DNA of 64,000 nt from a virus. The DNA lies in the IMG/VR virus record IMGVR_UViG_3300031603_000001, positions 1 through 64,000 of that record. One strand, given 5' to 3'. The notes beneath the pieces were generated by a model. The model ran no database searches. It had not been told where the DNA came from and was given only the letters and a program-made list of their open reading frames with translations. The position numbers were made by a program, and so were the translations under genes. Shown here one piece after another: positions 19,070-35,659 of the stretch; positions within the stretch are counted from its first letter, which is position 1; each line of letters begins with the position of its first letter.

Positions 19070-19498
19070 ATGCCTGACAAGAAAGAAGAAAAAGCAGAAA
19101 CCACCCCTGAGGCAACAAAGCCTGTAGCAGCAGTGGATGGAGAGAAGACAGAAGTTACAGAAGAGACAGTAGAAGTAGCTCCTGAAATCAAAGCAAAGGT
19201 ACCAAGTACCGAACAAATTGATAAATGGAAAGAGGAATACGGCAAGGTAGACCTCTGCGGAGTAGCAGACGACGCCTTTGTATATCGTCGTATCACACGT
19301 ACGGACCATCAGGAACTGTTGAAAGAAAACGTATTCAACCAACCTGACGCCCAAGAACAGATTGTACGTCGCTTCCTGCTTTTCCCGGATATTGATACTA
19401 TCGATACCGAAGGGTCCGGTGGAATTATCCAGACTATGTCAGAGAACATCCTGCTAGCTTCTGGCTTTGGAAACCGTATGGAGCCTATCACGCTCTAA
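19070..19498 (+). CDS. Tail assembly chaperone 1
   Basis: TAAGGAG RBS; acidic N-terminus, then EQIDKWKEEYGKV...FVYRRITR...GIIQTMSENILLASGF, the pattern of large-myophage tail chaperones; between the tube genes and the tape-measure position. Confidence 0.75.
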   Translation: MPDKKEEKAETTPEATKPVAAVDGEKTEVTEETVEVAPEIKAKVPSTEQIDKWKEEYGKVDLCGVADDAFVYRRITRTDHQELLKENVFNQPDAQEQIVRRFLLFPDIDTIDTEGSGGIIQTMSENILLASGFGNRMEPITL

Positions 19499-19576: not shown

Positions 19577-20203
19577 ATGGCAACACCAAATCAGATCCTA
19601 CTATGGAAACAACTTTACGGTAATATATCAGTCCTCCAAGTGGAGGATTCTGTATGTTATTACAGAGGGCTATCTGTAAACGAATTCCAAGCATTAGCTG
19701 AGCTAGAAGAGAAGCTACCTGCAGCGTCTAAGGAAGAGATGATCATCAAGACAGCGCTGCTAGATCCCCCTCCAGAGGATACACTCGCAGGCTTCCGCCT
19801 GACAGGTAGTCCTATGACTATTGCCAACGCTATTCTAGATGCATCTGTATACACAGAAGATGTCCTTAAGACTAAAGCCGAAGAAGCCAAAGCCTGGGCG
19901 CAATCATCTATTCAACAATCAACACTCTTTGTATTAGCATTGAACATCTCCCAAGTTTTCCCAGCGTTACCCCTACACGCACTTATGGATATGACACCTG
20001 ACCTACTGCTTCGTTATGCCGCGGCAATAGAAGAAGTAACTAAGCAACCCATCCTAACAAGTCTATTTGTACAGCAAGCCAAACAACAGCCAGTGAACCA
20101 TAAGATGGCTGAAGGGTTTGGTGTAGACGCAGAAACAATTAACGATACTACCAACGCCCTGCGTGATCAAATTAAAGATGCGAAGAAGCAGGCCGGTATC
20201 TAA
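19577..20203 (+). CDS. Tail assembly chaperone 2 (paralogue of chaperone 1 with a C-terminal extension)
   Basis: QILLWKQLYGNI...CYYRGLSVNEF...TIANAILDAS parallels chaperone 1; TAATG coupling to the giant ORF. Confidence 0.65.
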   Translation: MATPNQILLWKQLYGNISVLQVEDSVCYYRGLSVNEFQALAELEEKLPAASKEEMIIKTALLDPPPEDTLAGFRLTGSPMTIANAILDASVYTEDVLKTKAEEAKAWAQSSIQQSTLFVLALNISQVFPALPLHALMDMTPDLLLRYAAAIEEVTKQPILTSLFVQQAKQQPVNHKMAEGFGVDAETINDTTNALRDQIKDAKKQAGI

Positions 20204-23200
20204 TGGACCCACAGGGTTACACCTCCAGGGATGAAGCGCTCCGCCTTTTAGGCGACACTCCTCAAAATTCAGCCGCCATGGCCGGAGGACTGGCCTCGGC
20301 TGCAAAAGCCATGGCTGGCTTTGCCCTTGCATTTACAGCAGTAACCAAAGGTATACCAGCAGTAGGAAGACTGGCTGTACGAACAATTGGAGCAACGTCA
20401 AGAGGCTCCGGGTCAGCCTGGCGTAGTGTACTCGGGACAGGACTAGCTTCCGCCAGAGAAGCCGCTAAGCGTACAAGCGGTGGCACGACTACAGAATTTC
20501 TAGCACACCTTACTGAAGCAAAGGGTGGCTCATTCCATAGAATGTTTTCCACTGTACATAAAGCTACATCAGGACAAGCTTATCAACAATATGTAACCGG
20601 TAGCCGGAAGGCTATGACACAGGCAGATAGGTGGAGTTTACTAAAGCCATCTCTAGCAGGAGGACGCGTACGATTCTCAGGACGAGCAGACTCCGCGGAT
20701 ATAGCTAAAGGTATAGGGGCAGCTTACTTCAAAGAAACAGCCATGGCACTCCCTGCCATGTACGCAATGGACAGAAAGTTTGGTGAGCAGAAGGATCATA
20801 TCTCATGGTACAACGTACCAGGCAGAGCGATGGACTTCGCAAAGTATATTCCAGAATATGTAGGGTTTGACGTAGCAGGACGTGGCGCAATGATGGGAGT
20901 AGGTATGGCTAAGGCCGGCCTACTAGCCAAGGCTAGGACATCCAGCGGAGAAGGATGGTTCCCTGACGCACTTAACAAAGTTTCTAAAGTAACAGAATGG
21001 TATAATAAGAGTGGTAACAAATTCAGAGGTGGCCTAGAGGCTGCGTCTGATCATATGCGTGCAGCTAAAGGCTCCTGGCAGAATAGAGTAGACGCCCGCG
21101 CACGGATAGACAATACCAATATATCGAGACTCAAGATAACAGGTCCTGGTACTCGAGAGGGTTGGCAGAGCGTATACCGTGAACAGTTAACCTCTGTAAC
21201 AGATGCACGTAAGAATGCACTTGACAGTAAAAGCCGCATGGAGCAGAGTGGCCTGTTCGAACAGCAGATAGACTCCCTTACTACTTCTAGAGAACAGATA
21301 GCAGACAATATGGGCTCTGCCTTACGTAAGAAGGACGAGTCAGAAGGCTTCATAAAAGATTTCACTAGAACACATTTTGCACAACCAGGACGCAGTGACT
21401 ACTCTTCAGGCACAGAACGTTTTATTATGCGCGCACTCGGTGTACGCAGGGCTAAGTTTGGCGACTTCGATGAAATCACACAAGGCAAGGTACGTAAACA
21501 ACTGAGACAATTCTCAGGTAAAGTATCCGAACTAGATGAATCTATAAAAGAACAAGATTTAGTAGATCTTATTGGAGCTGGTAAGCACGAGACCGATACT
21601 ACTAAGCTGAACTCCCTCCTTGCAAATCAGCATGTATACTATTCAAAATCAGCAGACAAAGTATTTGACTTACGTAAGTGGACACCAGGTGGTGTAATAG
21701 ATAATGCGTTCCAAAAGCTAGGCAGGAGTGGGTCACTGGGCTCAGCCATCTCTACACTGTATCCTGTACGATCAGCTATTGGCGCAGAGCTTCCTACTAT
21801 GATCAACGTAGACGACACCGTGCCTATCATGTTTGGGGGGTCGGCCAATATAACATCGGCAGGACGTTCTAGCTCCCAATGGATGGGAGAGGTTACGGGA
21901 GAAACCGGCTCGCTGCACAACGCATTCAATTTTACTCCTAAAGATGGAGCAAAAGGAAGTAGTGGATTAATACTACGTGATCCGGGTAAGCGAACTTACA
22001 CATTATACGGACGAGATGAAGGCAAGGGAGGCATGCATGCTTTAGCCCGTGACTTACGCCCAATGAGTTCCTTACTCTCCGAAAAGTCAGGCCGCCTGGT
22101 ATACGAGGACGCATCCTATATACCTAAGCAAAAGTTCAATGAGTTTAGAGGGCCGCTAGCTGGAGTTCGTAACTACATCTTCGACAAGACAGGACTTGGC
22201 CACCACACAGGTAATCAGCCTAGTCTCTTTGAGATGGCAGCTAACTTCATAAATAGAAGAGACCCTACCAAGCCTAACTATATATTGAACCCACAACGCT
22301 CCCGTATAGGGAAGTTGACTGGTGATAAAGCGTTATGGAAAACAAAGAGTCCTACAGAGAGGGCAGAATTATTAGCAGAGGCAAACGCCTCTCTAAGTAA
22401 TCTTCGTAGCGTTGAGAACGAAGCATACCGTAAAGTACTCCTACAAGACAAGGCAGTATATAAAGAACTATTAGTAGACAACGCAGGGAATCTGCACAAT
22501 TACAATGATGCAGCTGGTATAGGAGGTACTCCTCTTAGCGAGCCTGGGTTAACCACAGACCAGTTTGTCTATAAACTTATGCATGACCCTGTTGAGGCTA
22601 AGCGTGTAGCTACTCGGCTACTTAATCAATCAGATAATACTTATAAAAAGATAGCTAATGAACACGACCTACGGTCGTACATTGAGAATCAGATCATAGG
22701 AAAGCCTGATTCATTTCTAATTAAGTCTCACGGGCAAGACACCCCACACCTAAAGTTATTGAGATTCATTGGAGATGTTAATTCTAAAGCGGTAAGCCTT
22801 AAGTCCCACATGAATGACGACCCTGTCGCCAGAGCTGTACAAGCTGCTGTAAATAAGACAGGAAGATTCAGTGACAGAGATCTGGCAGGAGCAAAGCTAG
22901 CAGTAGAGTCACGTTTATTTAGAAACAAACATGCAGATGCAATTAAAAGCTTTAAGAATAACGTCAATGGCGAGTTAGTATTTAACGATGATACTACTAA
23001 CGGAATAGCAGCGCTACAACAACTACAGCACAGCACCGCTAACGATCAGTACCTGAAACAGACTCCTTTCTTTAAGAGGTTTGGTAAACCATCAGATGCA
23101 CGTTCCGAGCAGATGCAAACCATCAATACGCTCACAGATAAAACACCCTATGTGTTAGTAGGAGGCAAAAGCCCTGTAGGCATGGGCGCCACTAAATTCA

Positions 23201-26200
23201 TGGGACGTTGGGCATATGATACCTTTGGATCCACCATGGACCTTATGGGGCTAGGGTGGGATAGAGGTAAGTACCAAAGCTTCTGGCCTAAGCTAGGTAA
23301 TAAAGAGCATCAATCCGTTGGGGCACTGTTCGCAAAGCGAGCATTATTATTCGCAGGTATCGAAACCATGTACGACGCAGTGGACACATTCACAGACGTC
23401 ACCCCCATCTTCGCAGGCACAATGTTCGATGAGGGCATATCAACTGCAGGCGCAGACCACGCTGTACGTTTACGCATGGGAGCTGGTAAAGTGTATGACG
23501 CCATTGGTGTAACAGCCGCGGCTAAATACATGGAAGGCCTAATGCCTAAATCTTCCAAGATACTACCAGGTGCCGCAATGGGCTTCATGGCATACGGTGT
23601 GCCTGGGGCAGCAGTAGGCGCTGTGTTAAACTCTTATGTACAACCACAGTTATCTGAAGGGCCGCTATCATTTTTAGCAGCCATACCCATGGCCGCCCCT
23701 TTTGTAGCAGATCTCACTAAATCACACGAAGAGCTTCAGGACTTATACACCGGCCGTGACTTAACAGCTTGGCGTAAGGGAGCAGGCTGGACCTTGGGTA
23801 CAACACCAATCGAAGGCGGTCGTGTAGACTCGCTGGTACCTAACTGGTACGCACGTATGAAATCAAGTGCCGATACCACTGCGGTTCAATACGGGTCTAG
23901 ACTAGAGAAGTTCATATTCAAAGACAGAGCATTCATTGACTTCTCCCTCGGTGATCTCATAGATCCCCAGTACCTAACACGTAAACATTATTACGATCGC
24001 CCGTACGTAGAACCGGATGTTCCATTCAGCGAAATGCCTTTGATTGGACCAACCATTGGTACTGCCATAGGAAAGATGTACAACGCCCTTCACCCTCTTG
24101 GCAGTAACAAACTTATGCATCTAGATGAAGCTCGTAGAAACATGGCAAGCGGTGTATCAGGTGCAGGAACTGGTGCCCACGAGAGTGGCATGCTAGCGGG
24201 GTTTGGAGAATACACTGGTGTATTTGGTGAGTTTGATATGGGAACACAGGTACTACCTGGCCTAGGGCTTATTAGTGACGAGTACGTAAACAGATCTTCG
24301 TCTCTACGTGCGGCGGCAGGCGAACAAGTGTACCGTGGATTTATCGAGCCTGCAGGATTATCAGGGTTCCTGACATCAACAGCTATGTGGGGAGGTAATG
24401 AGCCTTTCTCAGATGAAGCATACCTGGAAAGCTCAAGCTCTATCGATTCAACCACACGCTCTCTGTGGGACCGTAACCTTGGTGATTTACTACTAACTAA
24501 TGAGGGGTTACGTAGACTGTACCCGCGTCCACGTACCTCATTTGATAAAGTCAACCCTATTAATAACTTGATGCCTGGCTGGATGCCAGAAGAGTACCGT
24601 ACTGGTGACCCCTACTGTCTGACATCTAAATCAGAGGTTGAGATCATTAGTGGTATCAAACGCGCAGATGAAGTACAAGTAGGCGATCTTATACGCACGT
24701 CATCAGGTAGGTACACACCAGTAGCAGAAGTAATACCACGTAAGATCAGTGAAAAAGTGTACACCATCAAGCTGAAGGAATCGGATGCTACAATTCAAGT
24801 TACGGGTGACCACCCATTCCTAATTAACTCAGGCAACAGATACCAACAGGCTAAGCTCCTGAAGAAGGAAGACAGCATTGTATACCCATTACGCGACCTG
24901 ACCACAGTGCAGCCTTACATCGTACCAGCAGAGGGCAAGAGTGGCGCAATCATGCTAACAGGTGGAGTAGCCTTAGCCCTTGGTATACTAGTGAAGTATG
25001 GTATATTATTTGATGACACTATCTTACTAAGAGACTGTCCTGTCGCACTAGATGAACTTAAGTTCATATTCAAAGAGCACCTTAACTGTTACATTACGAA
25101 GTCCTTCACCATTGACAGACTGAGTGTAGTATCAGTATTCAAGCAGCTGCTTAAGTACGGGATCCCGGATAGCTTCTACAAAGTAGGAACATACGTCTTC
25201 CTACAGTTCGCAAAACATTTTATGATACCATCCGAGGATGGAGAACTACAGTTTACATTCCCAACACGTTCCATGGCGTACCAGGCCTGGAGTATCTTTG
25301 CCCAAGACAAGCTATTGACTGAGCTCACGCTTAATTCATTACACGTGAGAGGAAGCTCGGCATCAGTGATACACTACATGCTCACAAATATCCCAATCAA
25401 TTATTCACTAGAGGACGAGGACAGAGTACGACCAAGGACAGCTCTCAACAATAAAACCTTATGGATGTCCATTGAATGGGTCCGTAGGGACGATTATACC
25501 GGCACAGTGTATGGATTCTCAGTAGACACTGATGATAGCTTCTGTGTACTACACGCTTGTACTCACAACACGAAGAAGCCATTCGGAGAATACATCCTTC
25601 CCGGTGCAGGCTATGAAGCAGGTCACGACATCACAGTTGATTACCCAACTGGAGGTTCGCGCCTAGGTTACAATCCATACGACCAGGCCCTAAGTATGGT
25701 AGGCTTAACATCTATTGATGACGACGAGACCCTCGAGATCCTTGAAGGCGGAACAGCTATTCACCGTATGGTCCAGCACGCACTCAAAGCACAGAACTCA
25801 CGTGTTAAAACTGAAGCACTAGTTACTGATCCAGAACACCGCATATCATCTTATGTTGATGTTGTGCTGCCTAAGGACTTTAGTGGCCAAGAAGTGCCTC
25901 TTGAAGTAAAGACAATTAATCCTTTGGGGTTCCAACGCCTTACTAAGCCTAAGTATAAGAACTCGGTACAGCTTAATGCCTACATGCATATGATGGGCGT
26001 TAACAAAGGCCGCATGATGTACGTTAACCGGGAAGATCCTACCCAGGTTAAAACGTATGACACATATTACAGCGAGAAGATGTGGCAAGAGACTGTGTCC
26101 AACCTGGACCAAGCGCGTACCATGGCGGACAGCATGTCCAAAGAAGGTTATGGGACTAACTCCGCTGGTTACAGTTACACAGATCGATTCGAAGTGTTAC

Positions 26201-33600: not shown

Positions 33601-35659
33601 ATTTGCACCCCAAGGAGGAACAGGGAGGGATCTAGTACTACAGACAAAAGGGTTTGGTCTAGGAGAAAGTCCAATATCCTATCAGTCAGCCGTCGACTTA
33701 CTTCAGGAGCTAAAACAAACAGGGCAATTAGGTGTATCAGACGAGGCAGCTGCAGGATGGCTGCGTGGAGAAACTGGCCGAAGAATGGGCCGCAATAGAT
33801 CTCCTGATGCAGTACAAGGTCAAGTACTAATCGGCCAACTATACGTACAGCCGGATGAATTATGGAAAGCTGCGGACTCCTTAGGTGCTCCTTACGTATC
33901 TAACTCAGCGGTATACGTAGATCGCGTTGCCATGAAGTTCATGCGTGGTGATCAGGACGGTGACCTTGCAGCACTGCTAAACATGGGCGGGTTTATTGAT
34001 TCAGAAACGGGACAGATAGGGCCTAAAGGCAGCGCTTCCCGTAATCTTACAGGTGGAATCTCAGTATCAGAAGCAACTGAAAAGATGGCCTTGGCACATT
34101 CATCGTACTTAGCTAAGTGGGAAGAACTAGAACGGCGAAGAAAAGGAATTGGACGAGCAGCCCCGGGTGATGTGTACTTTGCAGGCACAGTGAACCAGGA
34201 TGGTAGAGAGTTATTCCTACATAAAGATCCTACTAAACATCTCACCATGACTGCTAGCCTACGGGAAACACTCCCGGAAGGCCTACTTTCTGATGTTATC
34301 CAGATAGACGATCCTGTACAAACAAGTGTACAGCACCTTACCCAGAAATCCTTTACACCTATAATTGGTGGGTACGTTAAAGGTGCTATCGCCATGGCGT
34401 ATGGAGGAAGGTTAGGACTACTAAACAGATTAGAAGATGAAATAGCAGGATCTCCAGGCGCATTCGACACACTACTCGAGAAGAATAACCTCGGAGGAAT
34501 CTACGGACGTACCTTGACTAGTGGCGCATATCTGAAATCTATGGGCACACTCAATACAGTGCATCCAAACCTATTAAATCAAACTGGACACGAGCTTGTA
34601 GGAAATGCCATGTCAGCTATGATGCAAGAGGGTGGTATAACAAAGATCAACACTAACCCAGTAGCAGGCCTCGTCACGTTGATGTCTCATATGCGTAACA
34701 TCAAAACAGCTATGGGTACTCCTCAATTTGATGAAGCTACTAAATTCCTTGCATATATGGATGATCACCCCGACTTTGAGGGTATGAGTATACTCCATCA
34801 GTTACGAGACCGCCCAGCCTCACAGTACAGCCAAGTAGAGAATGTACAACTTCGGCAGACAGCTTACGAATTAGCCAATGCGTATGGTATAGCAACCAAT
34901 ACACTAGAAGCTACTGCTAAAATAAACCAAGCCCAATTCCTAGAAACAATAGGAGAAAAGAAGAACAAAGGCAAGATTGCTGAAATGCTTGATACTATAC
35001 ACACTAGTAGGTTTATTGGAGACATGGATAGGCAAGCTGCTAGCGGGCCTACTTCAGAAATACAATCACTAGTTGCAGGTAATGACGGCTTTACCACAGC
35101 CTTTAGATCAACCCTCACTCACTCTATGCGTTCCTTAGGTATGCACAATAATACTACAGAAAACTTAGTAGCAGGCATGATGGGAGGCATAGGTAGCACA
35201 ACAACTATGCGTATGCGCTCGGCTGGTAGAATAATGACAGAGACCCTTAAAGAGAACGTCGGGCGTTTGTTTAATTTCATAGACTCATCAACTGTACGTA
35301 AACTATCCGGACGTATAGGTACTGTTGCTGCAGCACTTACGTTCTTTGATCCAAACACAGGTTCCATGATGATAGGAGAGGGTGAAGGACGTGGCGGAGA
35401 ATACAGTGACATACCATCTGGTAAGGAAGTGATGAGAGCTTTCAAGAACCGCAAGACTGTTAGAACTAAAGAAGCCAACCCCTTCTTGCAAGATAAGCTA
35501 GCACGTCTCTCATTTGCTAACCCTAGAAATGAACGTAGAACTGTCAGAGGGCAACTGGTACCAGAGGCGCCAAAGTATGAATACAACAACCATACACGCA
35601 AATTCAATAAATTTAATATTAGTGACCATCTCCGCAGAGCTGGTGCGATAATGCAATGA
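27653..35659 (+). CDS. Giant virion-associated protein (2668 aa): DEDDh exonuclease plus a putative two-barrel RNA polymerase catalytic region
   Basis: Overlaps the end of the previous giant ORF. Exo I/II/III motifs at aa 576-854; RSP (2049-2051) and GDQDGD (2099-2104) in a beta-prime-like context. Confidence 0.65.
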   Translation: MADKTKDAQDTALSALLSLPTLLGIVKAAPTVVDALSQFSTYLNKNTTESVNSVLNSFLEQSADAPYVRTADTSMVKAAQKAIESTKQQLVHEQRQRLGVSNAEIADGTKSKWRAISQAISNNPSRKGYGTTIISGEGVSSSIEINNLYDMMANGFSSANHPIAPFRRPDQAAPGTAFLNKMDKHFPGSQAQYGTVGSIRPAAALAFVQAHQRGYGYGPTNQIRLGNYSEAAVEEHLGELAGELDNVHKAALLGDQRAQRVMRDTYKNLQKSVSPTEQRVTSFSADIQVRLEKTKSISLQSSANIETWLRVGTEGSSAARVRDLASKTLYGRIGHPELYTQLNDPVYRSAKIGDQLNRYRAILQEVKASSAGATGPEMEAIDAIEKTIRAQNSKMRNMQLEIAGITYDNGGLTQQALEFTISSNGKNKSMHLQPISWMVPVTTQGYISRGPGAIPDVTILNHAGLYGSNARNLKDAGDMALMDNAKMFGKLLNDIRDNRMSEEEIRRVVSRASSKSTAYTVPRTYTAKDVMNRTMVQFDEHDFYLNRQSKDNFRRVIEGSKGIDLLRTGGDAILYDTEYGSGLSRRTATPQEVTRSLATETYEHGLLYMDTAADRLLAAPEPGSLNAVPTGSQARHNMEMWLRTHGTSASEVVEWKRKARLNGSTGKVARRAIALMGKWEEEYLHRDGRSRQSFFFTQEGPAFDVPILRNTLQQLSANGIGERELRKEFGPLYDRLFAGINNRHAVADVLSDSYRHANAMSIFRVLNPKQPVSEGAQSMFTFYYGMSTLELEKTVGMATSETAWKDKTIINRVFGKKGPTPKQLESVKYILKTIRDDNLVGKTGPIHGHAAQFDVTMLRYILTGMQKQVGNLSAKELAGINTVATRAETLYQRSSASWTSGPNFIQSNRDRFDPYAPQTASGALSVSLTSTSKTQASRLKGTLLHLEKVLPLGALNNFGREKYQFAAGRVLNPMAGSNTYKGKKLTTAVGYGQLQTTAAAIELEFETLANTLGNDAPPELLRAMEEMTADKEAGNLNLPKLFAKMNAIKSRVGHTSVITMIDYLPEGFAYTEESGSIIQDQLLPYFASYAKESKHTTYFNTKYTAAQIGTDEGMAKFLSKLKFHKGIQYEINKKLSDKTLAISQPVAGKFSLELMGMHGAFDEAQRFVENSGTPPPSAVLAGEALVTSDTSGLGSLYAFGPEYDHQVPGFPSKITIDTNTGEISIGLHHVELDSLGGKTQTDGKVTKQSNTGLSGRVMGTLGNPKYTRGYTLDPFVGAAQGGKYGGSRNETAAALLKQVDRISTKWVMYDNLSIVEQERRANKIWTDLLGDKAADIDFSHTTITTPNGDRPILVTILPDRAEMAVKQNYKLGKLEEILRREGLTYDYVQRRFKENIDRLKLSDPGGRWTAAITQLNQSLERDINTSKAGSTEYANLVRVQANIGNPNEAAPLDLVSLVHGMGKSAQHWGLRALGTRSTSSSVADFWIKFSRAETLSGFPNITPRLLGTTANILLQSFDLATRTKKGGAGPADFNVMAGFLSGQAGVNHVNMWNENAIGDTLLDTQLLNEFYLNKRGVIPDTLDIKGLPNPKKIGITSASVLDVTEELEILGSLQKHVDFDDPNFHSMGRNERSHYLQGKFGKKPSDDFLHNLQLAKDQRETVWYADREWLHRAKLLKPRGPGGNRFIRYDAPTLTQLSKGFDIHGGGSWQTQIARALDSNGADSIKAVGYNGKTVILDSLKKRLIDAKLIDGNGRLQFEFDVKDLLESQIEKLGSNTGGDAAKHKELLQALLRQVDEASVTKDHFVLPSIGGVQAPYASGDRVLFSGLMKDTQGTLQAFGKLDSMRIDLTMDTATSKYRKYRKGKGGIHEAAIIDMGIDSVVADIKRNAMEVSGRVMNTWTKIGTAGFQQANFRAAAGTTTMAWGKLQNSMTLVPALEQVYSKIGTSDFVNTSYALPDFLNVSDKSPFKLDTWLSNLSKGNKVFAPQGGTGRDLVLQTKGFGLGESPISYQSAVDLLQELKQTGQLGVSDEAAAGWLRGETGRRMGRNRSPDAVQGQVLIGQLYVQPDELWKAADSLGAPYVSNSAVYVDRVAMKFMRGDQDGDLAALLNMGGFIDSETGQIGPKGSASRNLTGGISVSEATEKMALAHSSYLAKWEELERRRKGIGRAAPGDVYFAGTVNQDGRELFLHKDPTKHLTMTASLRETLPEGLLSDVIQIDDPVQTSVQHLTQKSFTPIIGGYVKGAIAMAYGGRLGLLNRLEDEIAGSPGAFDTLLEKNNLGGIYGRTLTSGAYLKSMGTLNTVHPNLLNQTGHELVGNAMSAMMQEGGITKINTNPVAGLVTLMSHMRNIKTAMGTPQFDEATKFLAYMDDHPDFEGMSILHQLRDRPASQYSQVENVQLRQTAYELANAYGIATNTLEATAKINQAQFLETIGEKKNKGKIAEMLDTIHTSRFIGDMDRQAASGPTSEIQSLVAGNDGFTTAFRSTLTHSMRSLGMHNNTTENLVAGMMGGIGSTTTMRMRSAGRIMTETLKENVGRLFNFIDSSTVRKLSGRIGTVAAALTFFDPNTGSMMIGEGEGRGGEYSDIPSGKEVMRAFKNRKTVRTKEANPFLQDKLARLSFANPRNERRTVRGQLVPEAPKYEYNNHTRKFNKFNISDHLRRAGAIMQ
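29366..30250 (+). other. DEDDh (DnaQ-like) 3'-5' exonuclease domain
   Basis: Exo I ILYDTEYG (D576, E578) then ETYEHGLL; Exo II TQEGPAFDVPIL (D704); Exo III HGHAAQFDV (H849-x4-D854). All catalytic positions are intact. Confidence 0.85.
33620..34110 (+). other. Putative double-psi beta-barrel RNA polymerase active-site region
   Basis: RDLVLQTKGFGLGESPISYQSAVDLL...GRNRSP...NSAVYVDRVAMKFMRGDQDGDLAALL parallels E. coli beta-prime [26 protein letters not shown]...LLNRAP...[24 protein letters not shown]. Confidence 0.6.

What the first reader, a model, noticed from the sequence alone, without database searches (positions are those of the whole stretch)
25690..26120. RecB/Cas4-like nuclease embedded in a tape-measure-like protein
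Seen: GGSRLG...GGTAIH...YVD...LEVKT...VQLNAYM, the full motif series of PD-(D/E)XK exonucleases, lying between two glycine-zipper segments. The four Fe-S cysteines of true Cas4 are missing. Established: tape measures often carry peptidoglycan hydrolases, whereas such nucleases in phages are usually standalone replication/recombination genes. Inference: a virion-delivered nuclease or DNA-threading ring acting during ejection.
Basis: partly seen in the sequence, partly recalled or inferred. Interest (0 to 1): 0.75.

Follow-up and report, generated by a model that had tools for sequence, protein, structure and literature searches.

The report
Cas4-like nuclease inside giant virion protein
A 2,486-residue tail-module protein of an uncultured 198-kb contractile-tailed phage carries, as an optional built-in module, an intact-looking DNA-end-cutting enzyme of the Cas4/lambda-exonuclease type that has lost the usual iron-sulfur cluster, so the phage probably brings a ready-made nuclease into the cell with its DNA.

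Summary
Residues 1812-1985 (nt 25636-26157) of the 2486-aa ORF 20203-27663 form a PD-(D/E)XK nuclease. Evidence: PHROG 1706 E=4e-14; a family profile hits Cas4 structure 4ic1 at E=7e-8; the AlphaFold model has pLDDT 89.8; VIA Z is 14-15 to LHK-Exo, Cas4 and lambda exonuclease.

Seven motif residues are each 90-97% conserved in 152 representatives, and 89% keep all seven. The domain has no cysteine.

The host protein is the homologue of Bacillus phage 0305phi8-36 gp145, a virion protein by mass spectrometry. It is not a recognisable tape measure; it is the first of two giants in the tape-measure slot.

New points:
- The nuclease is an optional insertion at a fixed loop of a conserved framework. 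Many relatives lack it.
- The intein lies in the framework, 22 residues upstream, not in the nuclease.
- The phage also has a separate canonical 4-Cys Cas4-like gene.

Most likely it is an active DNA-end exonuclease carried in the particle and delivered with the DNA. Activity, delivery and target are inferred.

The scan has noted the same kind of domain on other DNA, in at least seven other genomes. I found no paper or public annotation describing it.

The parts
20203..27663 (+). 2486-aa giant ORF (P0001), homologue of Bacillus phage 0305phi8-36 gp145 (virion structural protein)
   Evidence: Six collinear BLASTP segments to gp145. 15 near-full-length homologues of 1734-3615 aa.
19070..19498 (+). 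tail-chaperone-like ORF, homologue of gp143/gp144
   Evidence: BLASTP 3e-9 to gp143 and 5e-7 to gp144. Synteny sheath-tube-tube-chaperone-giant-giant.
23560..23721 (+). hydrophobic / glycine-zipper segment 1 (aa 1120-1173)
   Evidence: Kyte-Doolittle scan and charge-free run.
24394..24615 (+). conserved framework motif of the N-extein (aa 1398-1471), ending in GDPY
   Evidence: alignments. Present in both nuclease-bearing and nuclease-less relatives.
24616..25569 (+). intein (aa 1472-1789): C1, TGDH block B, terminal HN, +1 Thr1790
   Evidence: Pfam Intein_splicing 34.5 bits, just under the 35.8 cut-off. Exactly absent in the intein-less relatives P0013, P0014, P0015 and gp145.
25570..25635 (+). 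framework segment after the splice site (aa 1790-1811, G-E-x2-L-P-G-x-G-Y-E)
   Evidence: G1795, E1796, L1799, P1800 and G1801 are 86-96% conserved. The segment is also present in nuclease-less proteins.
25636..26157 (+). PD-(D/E)XK nuclease core (aa 1812-1985), an optional inserted domain
   Evidence: Profile-HMM positions 23-195 are missing in 14 relatives. VIA aligns model residues 22-195 to Cas4, LHK-Exo and lambda Exo at Z 14-15.
25762..25983 (+). span of the motif residues H1854, E1871, D1886, E1901, K1903, Q1923, Y1927
   Evidence: 90, 91, 97, 91 (E or D), 95, 94 and 92% conserved in 152 representatives. All seven are intact in 135 of 152. They sit on helix 52-75, strands 80-87, 92-100 and 109-116, and helix 129-142 of the model.
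26158..26382 (+). framework helices after the insert (aa 1986-2060; conserved Y1990, R1995, L1999, P2004, and the Y-x-x-R-F motif)
   Evidence: pLDDT about 90-95 in the model.
26647..26751 (+). glycine-zipper segment 2 (aa 2149-2183)
   Evidence: The equivalent segment of P0013 gives sub-threshold Gly-zipper Pfam hits.
27653..35659 (+). second giant ORF (2668 aa) in the gp146 'hypothetical tape measure' position; its start overlaps the end of the first giant by 11 nt
   Evidence: There is no BLASTP match to gp146, so the assignment is by position only.

Best explanation
Residues 1812-1985 are an iron-sulfur-free nuclease of the Cas4 / RecB / lambda-exonuclease branch of the PD-(D/E)XK superfamily. 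The domain is inserted into a loop of the most conserved core of a gp145-like giant virion protein.

Proposed mechanism:
1. The intein 22 residues upstream splices out. The nuclease then sits as an internal module of a cysteine-free chain.
2. That chain is built into the particle together with the neighbouring tape-measure-position giant, and it leaves the particle with the DNA.
3. The domain works as a metal-dependent nuclease that starts at DNA ends. D1886, E1901 and K1903 (with E1871) form the metal site. H1854, Q1923 and Y1927 position the strand.
4. The flanking glycine-zipper segments hold it near the entry site.

The module is optional within the family, and the phage has its own 4-Cys Cas4-like gene. 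Its most likely job is therefore an accessory early one: degrading linear host, competitor or defence-related DNA at the start of infection. It is probably not a core assembly or replication function.

Shown: fold, motif conservation, the insertion architecture, optionality, and the extra standalone gene.
Inferred: catalysis, delivery into the cell, and the target.
For: Sequence and fold:
- PHROG 1706 E=4e-14.
- The family profile hits Cas4 structures 4ic1 (E=7e-8) and 4r5q.
- Homologue P0014 passes the Pfam PDDEXK_1 cut-off (23.5 vs 22 bits).
- The AlphaFold model has pLDDT 89.8 and pTM 0.85.
- Foldseek top hits are Cas4, MGME1, lambda Exo, RecE, EXO5, Dna2 and AdnAB. VIA Z is 13.6-15.4 over 153-172 residues.

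Conservation:
- The seven motif residues are each 90-97% conserved in 152 representatives at 50% or lower identity.
- 135 of 152 keep all seven. The 14 that break the catalytic triad have mostly lost several other motif residues too.

Architecture:
- The nuclease is absent, between the same framework motifs, from 14 relatives.

Not the phage's only nuclease of this kind:
- The phage's own genome has a separate PF12705 gene (66.9 bits) with the Cas4 cysteine pattern.
- Standalone copies also occur in a nuclease-less and in a nuclease-bearing relative.

Virion link:
- gp145 of 0305phi8-36 carries the same domain and is recorded as a virion protein by mass spectrometry.
- 156 of 159 nuclease domains and 67 of 99 intein-less giants have no cysteine.
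- Precedent for an enzyme delivered as part of a tail-lumen giant: P23-45 gp96 (PMC10770324).
Against: - No activity data exist for any family member.
- The window's own domain is below the Pfam cut-off (15.7 vs 22 bits).
No distances were measured.
- Virion presence is known only for one distant homologue, and only from a database note. The primary paper was not held.
- A folded domain of about 20 kDa, in several copies, may not fit a tail-tube lumen, so its location in the particle is unknown.
- A nuclease that starts at DNA ends would also threaten the phage's own linear DNA.
- 9% of family members have a degenerate site, which shows the module can persist without catalysis.
Confidence: 0.5

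Rival explanations
1. The enzyme processes the phage's own genome. It is positioned at the leading DNA end and resects it 5'-3'. This would expose terminal-repeat single strands for annealing, circularisation or recombination-dependent replication, or it would make a single-stranded template for the co-delivered RNA-polymerase-like giant.
For: The closest folds are recombination exonucleases (lambda Exo, RecE, LHK-Exo). The closest cultured-phage relative by tblastn E-value (6e-8) lies two genes from RecA. 0305phi8-36 has long terminal repeats (abstract of PMC3357382). Other scan notes report the nuclease next to, or fused with, an RNAP-like module; I did not check this.
Against: The module is optional in the family, so it cannot be essential for genome establishment. 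The phage already has a standalone Cas4-like exonuclease.
Confidence: 0.2
2. It is a non-catalytic DNA-end clamp or structural module. The fold holds or caps the genome end in the tail and protects it from host RecBCD/AddAB, as described for injected end-binding proteins such as Mu N and T4 gp2 (own knowledge).
For: Cas4 has been recruited once as an inactive virion protein (TTV1 nucleocapsid protein TP1, abstract of PMC4625639). 14 of 152 family members have a degenerate site. Relatives carry a staphylococcal-nuclease-fold module whose catalytic positions vary.
Against: 89% of representatives keep all seven motif residues across deep divergence. Binding alone would not require this.
Confidence: 0.15
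3. It has an assembly-time role. It trims or clears DNA during head-tail joining or tail assembly, like the virion-associated restriction-endonuclease-fold nuclease gp4 of T4 mentioned in PMC7824862.
For: There is a precedent for a virion-associated nuclease of this fold with a packaging role (PMC7824862).
Against: The module is optional among close framework homologues. The gene lies in the tail-lumen slot, not at the head-completion genes.
Confidence: 0.07
4. It is a selfish or decaying insertion of no use to the phage, sitting beside an intein hot spot.
For: The presence/absence pattern is patchy on a small framework tree with weak support. Inteins are inserted at two sites of the same framework.
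Against: 545 clusters at 50% identity match the domain at E<=1e-3, and the best 150 are nearly all giants or their fragments with a conserved active site. The fold relatives are exonucleases, not site-specific homing enzymes. An in-frame domain has no known way to home.
Confidence: 0.03

Closest known systems
Cas4 nucleases (Sulfolobus SSO0001, PDB 4ic1; Pyrobaculum Pcal_0546, 4r5q; Cas4 in Cas4-Cas1-Cas2, 7mi4/7mi5/8d3l)
   Same: Same core fold (VIA Z 11.8-15.2). The GxxxH, E, D, (D/E)xK and QxxxY motifs match, and they are the best sequence-profile hits in the PDB.
   Different: It has no Fe-S cysteines, which are described as universal in Cas4 (PMC5704561). There is no CRISPR context. It is an internal module of a 2486-aa virion protein.
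Lambda exonuclease / LHK-Exo / RecE (Fe-S-free recombination exonucleases)
   Same: The fold match is equally good (Z 13.2-15.4 for LHK-Exo and lambda Exo; 10.6 for RecE). They also have no iron-sulfur cluster.
   Different: Those are free-standing ring-forming enzymes, expressed after infection and paired with an annealing protein. Oligomeric state was not tested here.
Standalone phage Cas4-like / PDDEXK_1 exonucleases (PHROG 1706; Eggerthella phage LE2-3, Mycobacterium phages Myrna and Phabba, Thermus phage phiYS40; this phage's own gene at genome position 174159-175058)
   Same: They are the nearest sequence relatives among cultured phages.
   Different: LE2-3 and the phage's own copy keep the N-terminal Cys and the C-terminal Cys cluster, and LE2-3's sits in a replication/recombination module. 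There is no BLASTP similarity between the phage's own standalone copy and the embedded one.
Bacillus phage 0305phi8-36 gp145 (ORF145, virion structural protein)
   Same: It is the homologous protein, in the same gene order. It has the same framework and the same nuclease insert with the D, DIK and QxxxY motifs, and it is Cys-free. It is probably also the top BFVD hit, an unnamed entry (E=4e-14).
   Different: It has no intein. It has a 62-aa extra insert between motifs II and III. The nuclease is not annotated, and the 2007 comparative paper does not mention it.
Thermus phage P23-45 gp96, a tape-measure-fused virion RNA polymerase (PMC10770324)
   Same: A nucleic-acid enzyme is built into a giant tail-lumen protein and delivered with the DNA. 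That protein also has membrane segments.
   Different: The enzyme is different (RNA polymerase) and the phage is a siphovirus. The paper mentions no nuclease. Delivery and activity were shown there and are only inferred here.

Membership tests
PD-(D/E)XK superfamily, RecB/Cas4/lambda-Exo branch | alpha-beta-beta-beta-alpha-beta core fold | tested here: met
   AlphaFold pLDDT 89.8. Foldseek E=2e-7. VIA Z=15.4, rmsd 3.2 A over 162 residues.
PD-(D/E)XK superfamily, RecB/Cas4/lambda-Exo branch | catalytic D ... (D/E)xK on strands 2 and 3 | tested here: met
   D1886 and E1901-V-K1903 lie on strands 92-100 and 109-116 of the model. They are 97, 91 and 95% conserved and align to the same motifs of 4ic1. 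3D distances were not measured.
PD-(D/E)XK superfamily, RecB/Cas4/lambda-Exo branch | RecB-family QxxxY helix motif and GxxxH motif | tested here: met
   Q1923 and Y1927 are 94 and 92% conserved; G1850 and H1854 are 91 and 90% conserved.
Pfam PF12705 PDDEXK_1 | score at or above the curated cut-off (22 bits) | tested here: not met
   The window's domain scores 15.7 bits, E=0.015. Homologue P0014 scores 23.5 bits.
PD-(D/E)XK superfamily, RecB/Cas4/lambda-Exo branch | metal-dependent nuclease activity | not testable with these tools
   Needs an enzyme assay.
Cas4 sensu stricto | four conserved cysteines binding an Fe-S cluster | tested here: not met
   There is no Cys in the extein. 156 of 159 family domains are Cys-free. 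The criterion comes from PMC5704561.
Cas4 sensu stricto | association with cas1/cas2 or a CRISPR locus | tested here: not met
   The gene lies in a tail-gene block: sheath, tube, chaperone, giants.
Tail tape measure proteins | homology to a tape-measure family | tested here: not met
   No tape-measure hit in Pfam or PHROGs.
Tail tape measure proteins | position after the tail chaperones and before the hub; hydrophobic segments | tested here: inconclusive
   It is the first of two giants in that slot. In 0305phi8-36 the second giant (gp146) was assigned as the tape measure. Hydrophobic segments are present.
Tail tape measure proteins | length proportional to tail length | not testable with these tools
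   The phage is uncultured and no particle image exists.
gp145-like giant virion proteins (0305phi8-36 ORF145 family) | collinear sequence homology and conserved gene order | tested here: met
   Six collinear BLASTP segments, E from 2e-15 to 1e-4. Sheath, tube and chaperone homologues lie upstream.
gp145-like giant virion proteins (0305phi8-36 ORF145 family) | presence in the virion | not testable with these tools
   Known only from the mass-spectrometry note on gp145.
Inteins (Hint domain) | C1, TxxH, terminal HN, nucleophile at +1, and an exact empty site in relatives | tested here: met
   C1472, T1534-x-x-H1537, H1788-N1789 and T1790. The empty site GDPY|T/S-K is seen in P0013, P0014, gp145 and others. 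Pfam scores 34.5 bits against a 35.8 cut-off.

The most novel reading that the evidence does not exclude
The embedded 5'-3' end-resecting nuclease and the neighbouring giant form one injected machine. Other agents of this scan read an RNA-polymerase-type DxDGD site and a DEDDh exonuclease in that neighbour. In this reading the nuclease resects the leading end of the entering genome, and this creates the single-stranded template on which the co-delivered polymerase starts pre-early transcription. That would explain why the two giants are always adjacent and are fused into one chain in some lineages.
Probability: 0.1. Interest if true: 0.85.

Novelty: new variant of a known kind. Interest (0 to 1): 0.6.

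Why it matters
Phage nucleases of this family are known as free-standing replication/recombination or CRISPR-adaptation enzymes made after infection. Here one is built into a virion protein, conserved in hundreds of sequence clusters from uncultured jumbo phages and present in one cultured phage.

The embedded copy has lost the iron-sulfur cluster, while the same genome keeps a canonical 4-Cys copy elsewhere.

If the domain is active and delivered, it adds a nuclease to the short list of enzymes that tailed phages inject with their DNA. It would also give a natural example of how a Cas4 fold is stabilised without its cluster.

A ready test pair exists in the Bacillus cereus group: 0305phi8-36 (with the module) and vB_BceM_WH1 (same framework, without it).

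Tried and rejected
- Pfam on the whole protein finds only the intein. On the domain alone the nuclease hit is sub-threshold.
- The intein does not split the nuclease. It sits in the framework motif GDPY|T/S-K, 22 residues before the insert, and the same motif exists in nuclease-less proteins.
- The embedded domain is not a recent copy of the phage's own Cas4-like gene: BLASTP finds no similarity.
- It is not a replacement for a missing recombination exonuclease. Standalone PF12705 genes occur in this genome, in a complete nuclease-less relative and in a nuclease-bearing one.
- The search for related loci with a short-fragment alignment failed. It worked with full-length proteins.
- The ESM Atlas gave nothing for the framework.
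- The AlphaFold model of a nuclease-less framework (L015) has pLDDT 69. The intein-target motif region is below 60, so its fold and function remain unknown. Only the staphylococcal-nuclease-like module matched the PDB.
- In the window's clade there is no staphylococcal-nuclease module.
- The virion mass-spectrometry paper PMC2171028 is not held.
- The polyvalent-protein paper (PMC5512222), the jumbo-phage survey (PMC7824862) and the Cas4 phylogenomics paper (PMC5704561) do not mention such a fusion. Two literature searches found no description.
- Public names of ten homologue clusters are only 'hypothetical protein' or 'Hint domain-containing protein'.
Full report
**The gene and its context.** The finding lies in a single 2486-aa ORF, nt 20203-27663 on the + strand.
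- Upstream are a major-head-like gene, a 913-aa tail sheath, two tube paralogues and a tail-chaperone homologue.
- Downstream is a second giant ORF of 2668 aa whose start overlaps the first by 11 nt.
- BLASTP against Bacillus phage 0305phi8-36 gives homologues in the same order: sheath (gp139), tubes (gp140/141), chaperone (gp143/144). There are six collinear segments to gp145.
- gp145 is annotated 'virion structural protein; identified as virion protein by mass spectrometry'. The next gene, gp146, is the 'hypothetical tape measure'.
- The protein hits no tape-measure family.
- It is therefore the gp145-like first giant of a two-giant tape-measure slot, not a demonstrable tape measure.
- The record is a 197,958-bp virus contig rated 100% complete.

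**The observation.** All quoted motifs are present and in frame.
- PHROGs give three exonuclease families over residues 1844-1976, the best being phrog_1706 at E=4.3e-14.
- A profile of 33 family sequences hits the Cas4 structures 4ic1 (E=6.7e-8) and 4r5q. The D, ExK and QxxxY columns are aligned.
- An AlphaFold2 model of residues 1790-2060 has mean pLDDT 89.8 and pTM 0.85.
- In the model, H1854 sits on the first long helix. E1871, D1886 and E1901/K1903 sit on three successive strands. Q1923/Y1927 sit on the following helix. This is the canonical core order.
- Foldseek against the PDB returns only nucleases of this branch: Cas4, MGME1, lambda Exo, LHK-Exo, RecE, EXO5, Dna2, AdnAB.
- VIA gives Z 15.4 (LHK-Exo), 15.2 (Cas4 SSO0001), 14.9 (Cas4-Cas1) and 14.0 (lambda Exo) over model residues 22-195.
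- I could not read model coordinates, so co-location of the residues is inferred from these placements and was not measured.

**Conservation.** A full HMMER scan of 1.84 billion representatives with residues 1790-2020 found 545 clusters at E<=1e-3.
- The best 150 are almost all proteins of about 2000-3000 aa (or their fragments), with the domain at a similar position.
- In 152 aligned representatives the conservation is: H1854 90%, E1871 91%, D1886 97%, E/D1901 91%, K1903 95%, Q1923 94%, Y1927 92%.
- 135 of 152 keep all seven residues. The 14 with a broken triad have mostly lost several other motif residues too.
- This near all-or-none pattern fits an active site in most members and a retained but dead module in a minority.

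**No iron-sulfur cluster.** All five cysteines of the protein lie inside the intein.
- 156 of 159 family domains have no cysteine. 67 of 99 intein-less giants have none at all. The four cultured homologues are also Cys-free.
- By the criterion that all Cas4 proteins have four conserved cysteines (PMC5704561), this is not a Cas4 in the strict sense.
- The same genome has a separate 299-aa PDDEXK_1 gene at genome position 174159-175058 (66.9 bits). It has an N-terminal Cys and a C-terminal three-Cys cluster.
- That gene shows no BLASTP similarity to the embedded domain.
- The cultured-phage match with the best tblastn E-value (6e-8), the Eggerthella phage LE2-3 exonuclease two genes from RecA, also has the cysteines.
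- Standalone copies exist in a complete nuclease-less relative and in a nuclease-bearing one.
- The embedded nuclease is therefore an additional, virion-linked, cluster-free version. It does not stand in for a missing replication/recombination enzyme.

**Architecture.** A profile search of 34 related loci showed that 14 gp145-like giants match only positions 1-22 and about 195-229 of the domain profile, and the two pieces are adjacent.
- Inspection and a 21-row alignment confirm it. The framework is a conserved N-P-x-x-N-x-M-P-x-W stretch, then ...GDPY, x-K-x-x-x-G-E-x-x-L-P-G-x-x-Y-E, and then Y-x-x-D-R-x-x-I-L-x-x-V-A-P-Y-S. It is common to all of them.
- The nuclease core (window residues about 1812-1985) is an optional insertion between the last two elements.
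- The intein (residues 1472-1789) sits at GDPY|T/S-K, 22 residues upstream, in the framework. 12 of 15 near homologues have an intein at that site. About two thirds of the 159 representatives have an empty site there and at least a fifth carry an intein.
- A second fixed point, after the Y-P-Y-R-F motif, carries a staphylococcal-nuclease-fold module in many relatives. Evidence: Pfam SNase in P0013 and P0086, and Foldseek on a model of L015.
- That module is absent from the window's clade. By eye its calcium-ligand and general-base positions vary between rows, so it looks like a binding module.
- Two relatives (L009, L028) carry another intein in the conserved W-E-x-x-T-H motif.
- On a small framework tree the window's intein-plus-nuclease clade is monophyletic. 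Nuclease-bearing and nuclease-less proteins are interleaved elsewhere, with weak support.
- Among cultured phages, 0305phi8-36 gp145 has the nuclease with a 62-aa extra insert. WH1 gp096 has the framework without it. The ME3 and KLEB27-3 homologues are shorter and show neither the profile match nor the GDPY motif.

**How it probably works.**

*Shown:* a well-conserved active-site set in the right fold; an optional module; a cysteine-free carrier with hydrophobic Gly-zipper segments (residues 24-59, 1120-1173 and 2149-2183); a virion homologue; a separate canonical enzyme for replication.

*Inferred:*
- The module is an active, metal-dependent nuclease acting from DNA ends. Every close structural relative is of that type.
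- It travels in the particle and leaves it with the DNA, as shown for the RNA polymerase fused to the P23-45 tape measure (PMC10770324).
- Loss of the cluster and of all cysteines would suit a protein stored in the particle and passed through a narrow channel and the cell envelope.
- Because the module is dispensable within the family, I favour an accessory early role. That role would be attacking linear host, competitor or defence-related DNA.

*Rivals:* resection of the phage's own ends, a non-catalytic end clamp, and an assembly-time role. None is excluded.

**Prior knowledge.**
- The 2007 comparative paper on 0305phi8-36 does not mention a nuclease in gp145. It does note a staphylococcal nuclease domain on the hub of a related prophage.
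- Two full-text searches and three relevant surveys gave no description of a Cas4/RecB-type domain in a tape-measure-slot or virion giant.
- Public names for ten homologue clusters are 'hypothetical protein' or 'Hint domain-containing protein'.
- Earlier AI notes of this scan describe the same kind of domain in at least seven other genomes. In some it lies in a single giant that also has a polymerase-like part. They agree with this report but are not independent evidence.

Noticed in passing
own genome G000:C1:174159-175058 (L037:1465-2364), outside the window: A standalone 299-aa PDDEXK_1 gene (66.9 bits) with the Cas4 cysteine pattern: one N-terminal Cys and a C-terminal three-Cys cluster. 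It is unrelated by BLASTP to the embedded domain.
   Followed up: yes
L015:3988-5115, also L019, L021, L030, L033-L035, L012, L014; P0013 aa 1536-1613: Many relatives carry a staphylococcal-nuclease-fold module at a second fixed insertion point, after the Y-P-Y-R-F motif. The catalytic positions look unconserved by eye. The module is absent from the window's protein.
   Followed up: partly
L009:4201-6582 and L028:2153-4525: A second intein is inserted in the conserved W-E-x-x-T-H framework motif (window aa about 2092-2105). Two different framework motifs are therefore intein targets, which suggests that the framework itself has an important unknown function.
   Followed up: no
window 24394-24615 and its equivalent, residues 1-85 of the L015 model: The most conserved framework stretch is R-R-x-x-P, then the N-P-x-x-N-x-M-P-x-W stretch, then ...GDPY. 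It is predicted with pLDDT below 60, so its fold is unknown. It may fold only in an oligomer or inside the tail.
   Followed up: partly
window 20203-27663: The mature (spliced) giant has no cysteine at all. 67 of 99 intein-less homologues and all four cultured homologues are also Cys-free.
   Followed up: yes
P0011, P0012, L012:4282-5094 and 12 further representatives: About 9% of family members have a degenerate active site. Examples are E-I-H instead of E-x-K, and loss of Q or Y. Several motif residues are usually lost together.
   Followed up: partly
P0021 (3298 aa; WP_427929308.1): A homologue with 45% identity in the domain is recorded from an Acinetobacter sp. assembly on a 195-kb contig. 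This gives a possible host clue for this phage group.
   Followed up: no
window 27653-27663: The start of the second giant ORF overlaps the end of the first by 11 nt, which suggests translational coupling of the two giants.
   Followed up: no
P0007 (3536 aa), P0016 (4392 aa), L007/L008: Some homologues are much longer and carry extra Hint and LAGLIDADG domains. One example is an 818-aa insertion near the same splice site.
   Followed up: no
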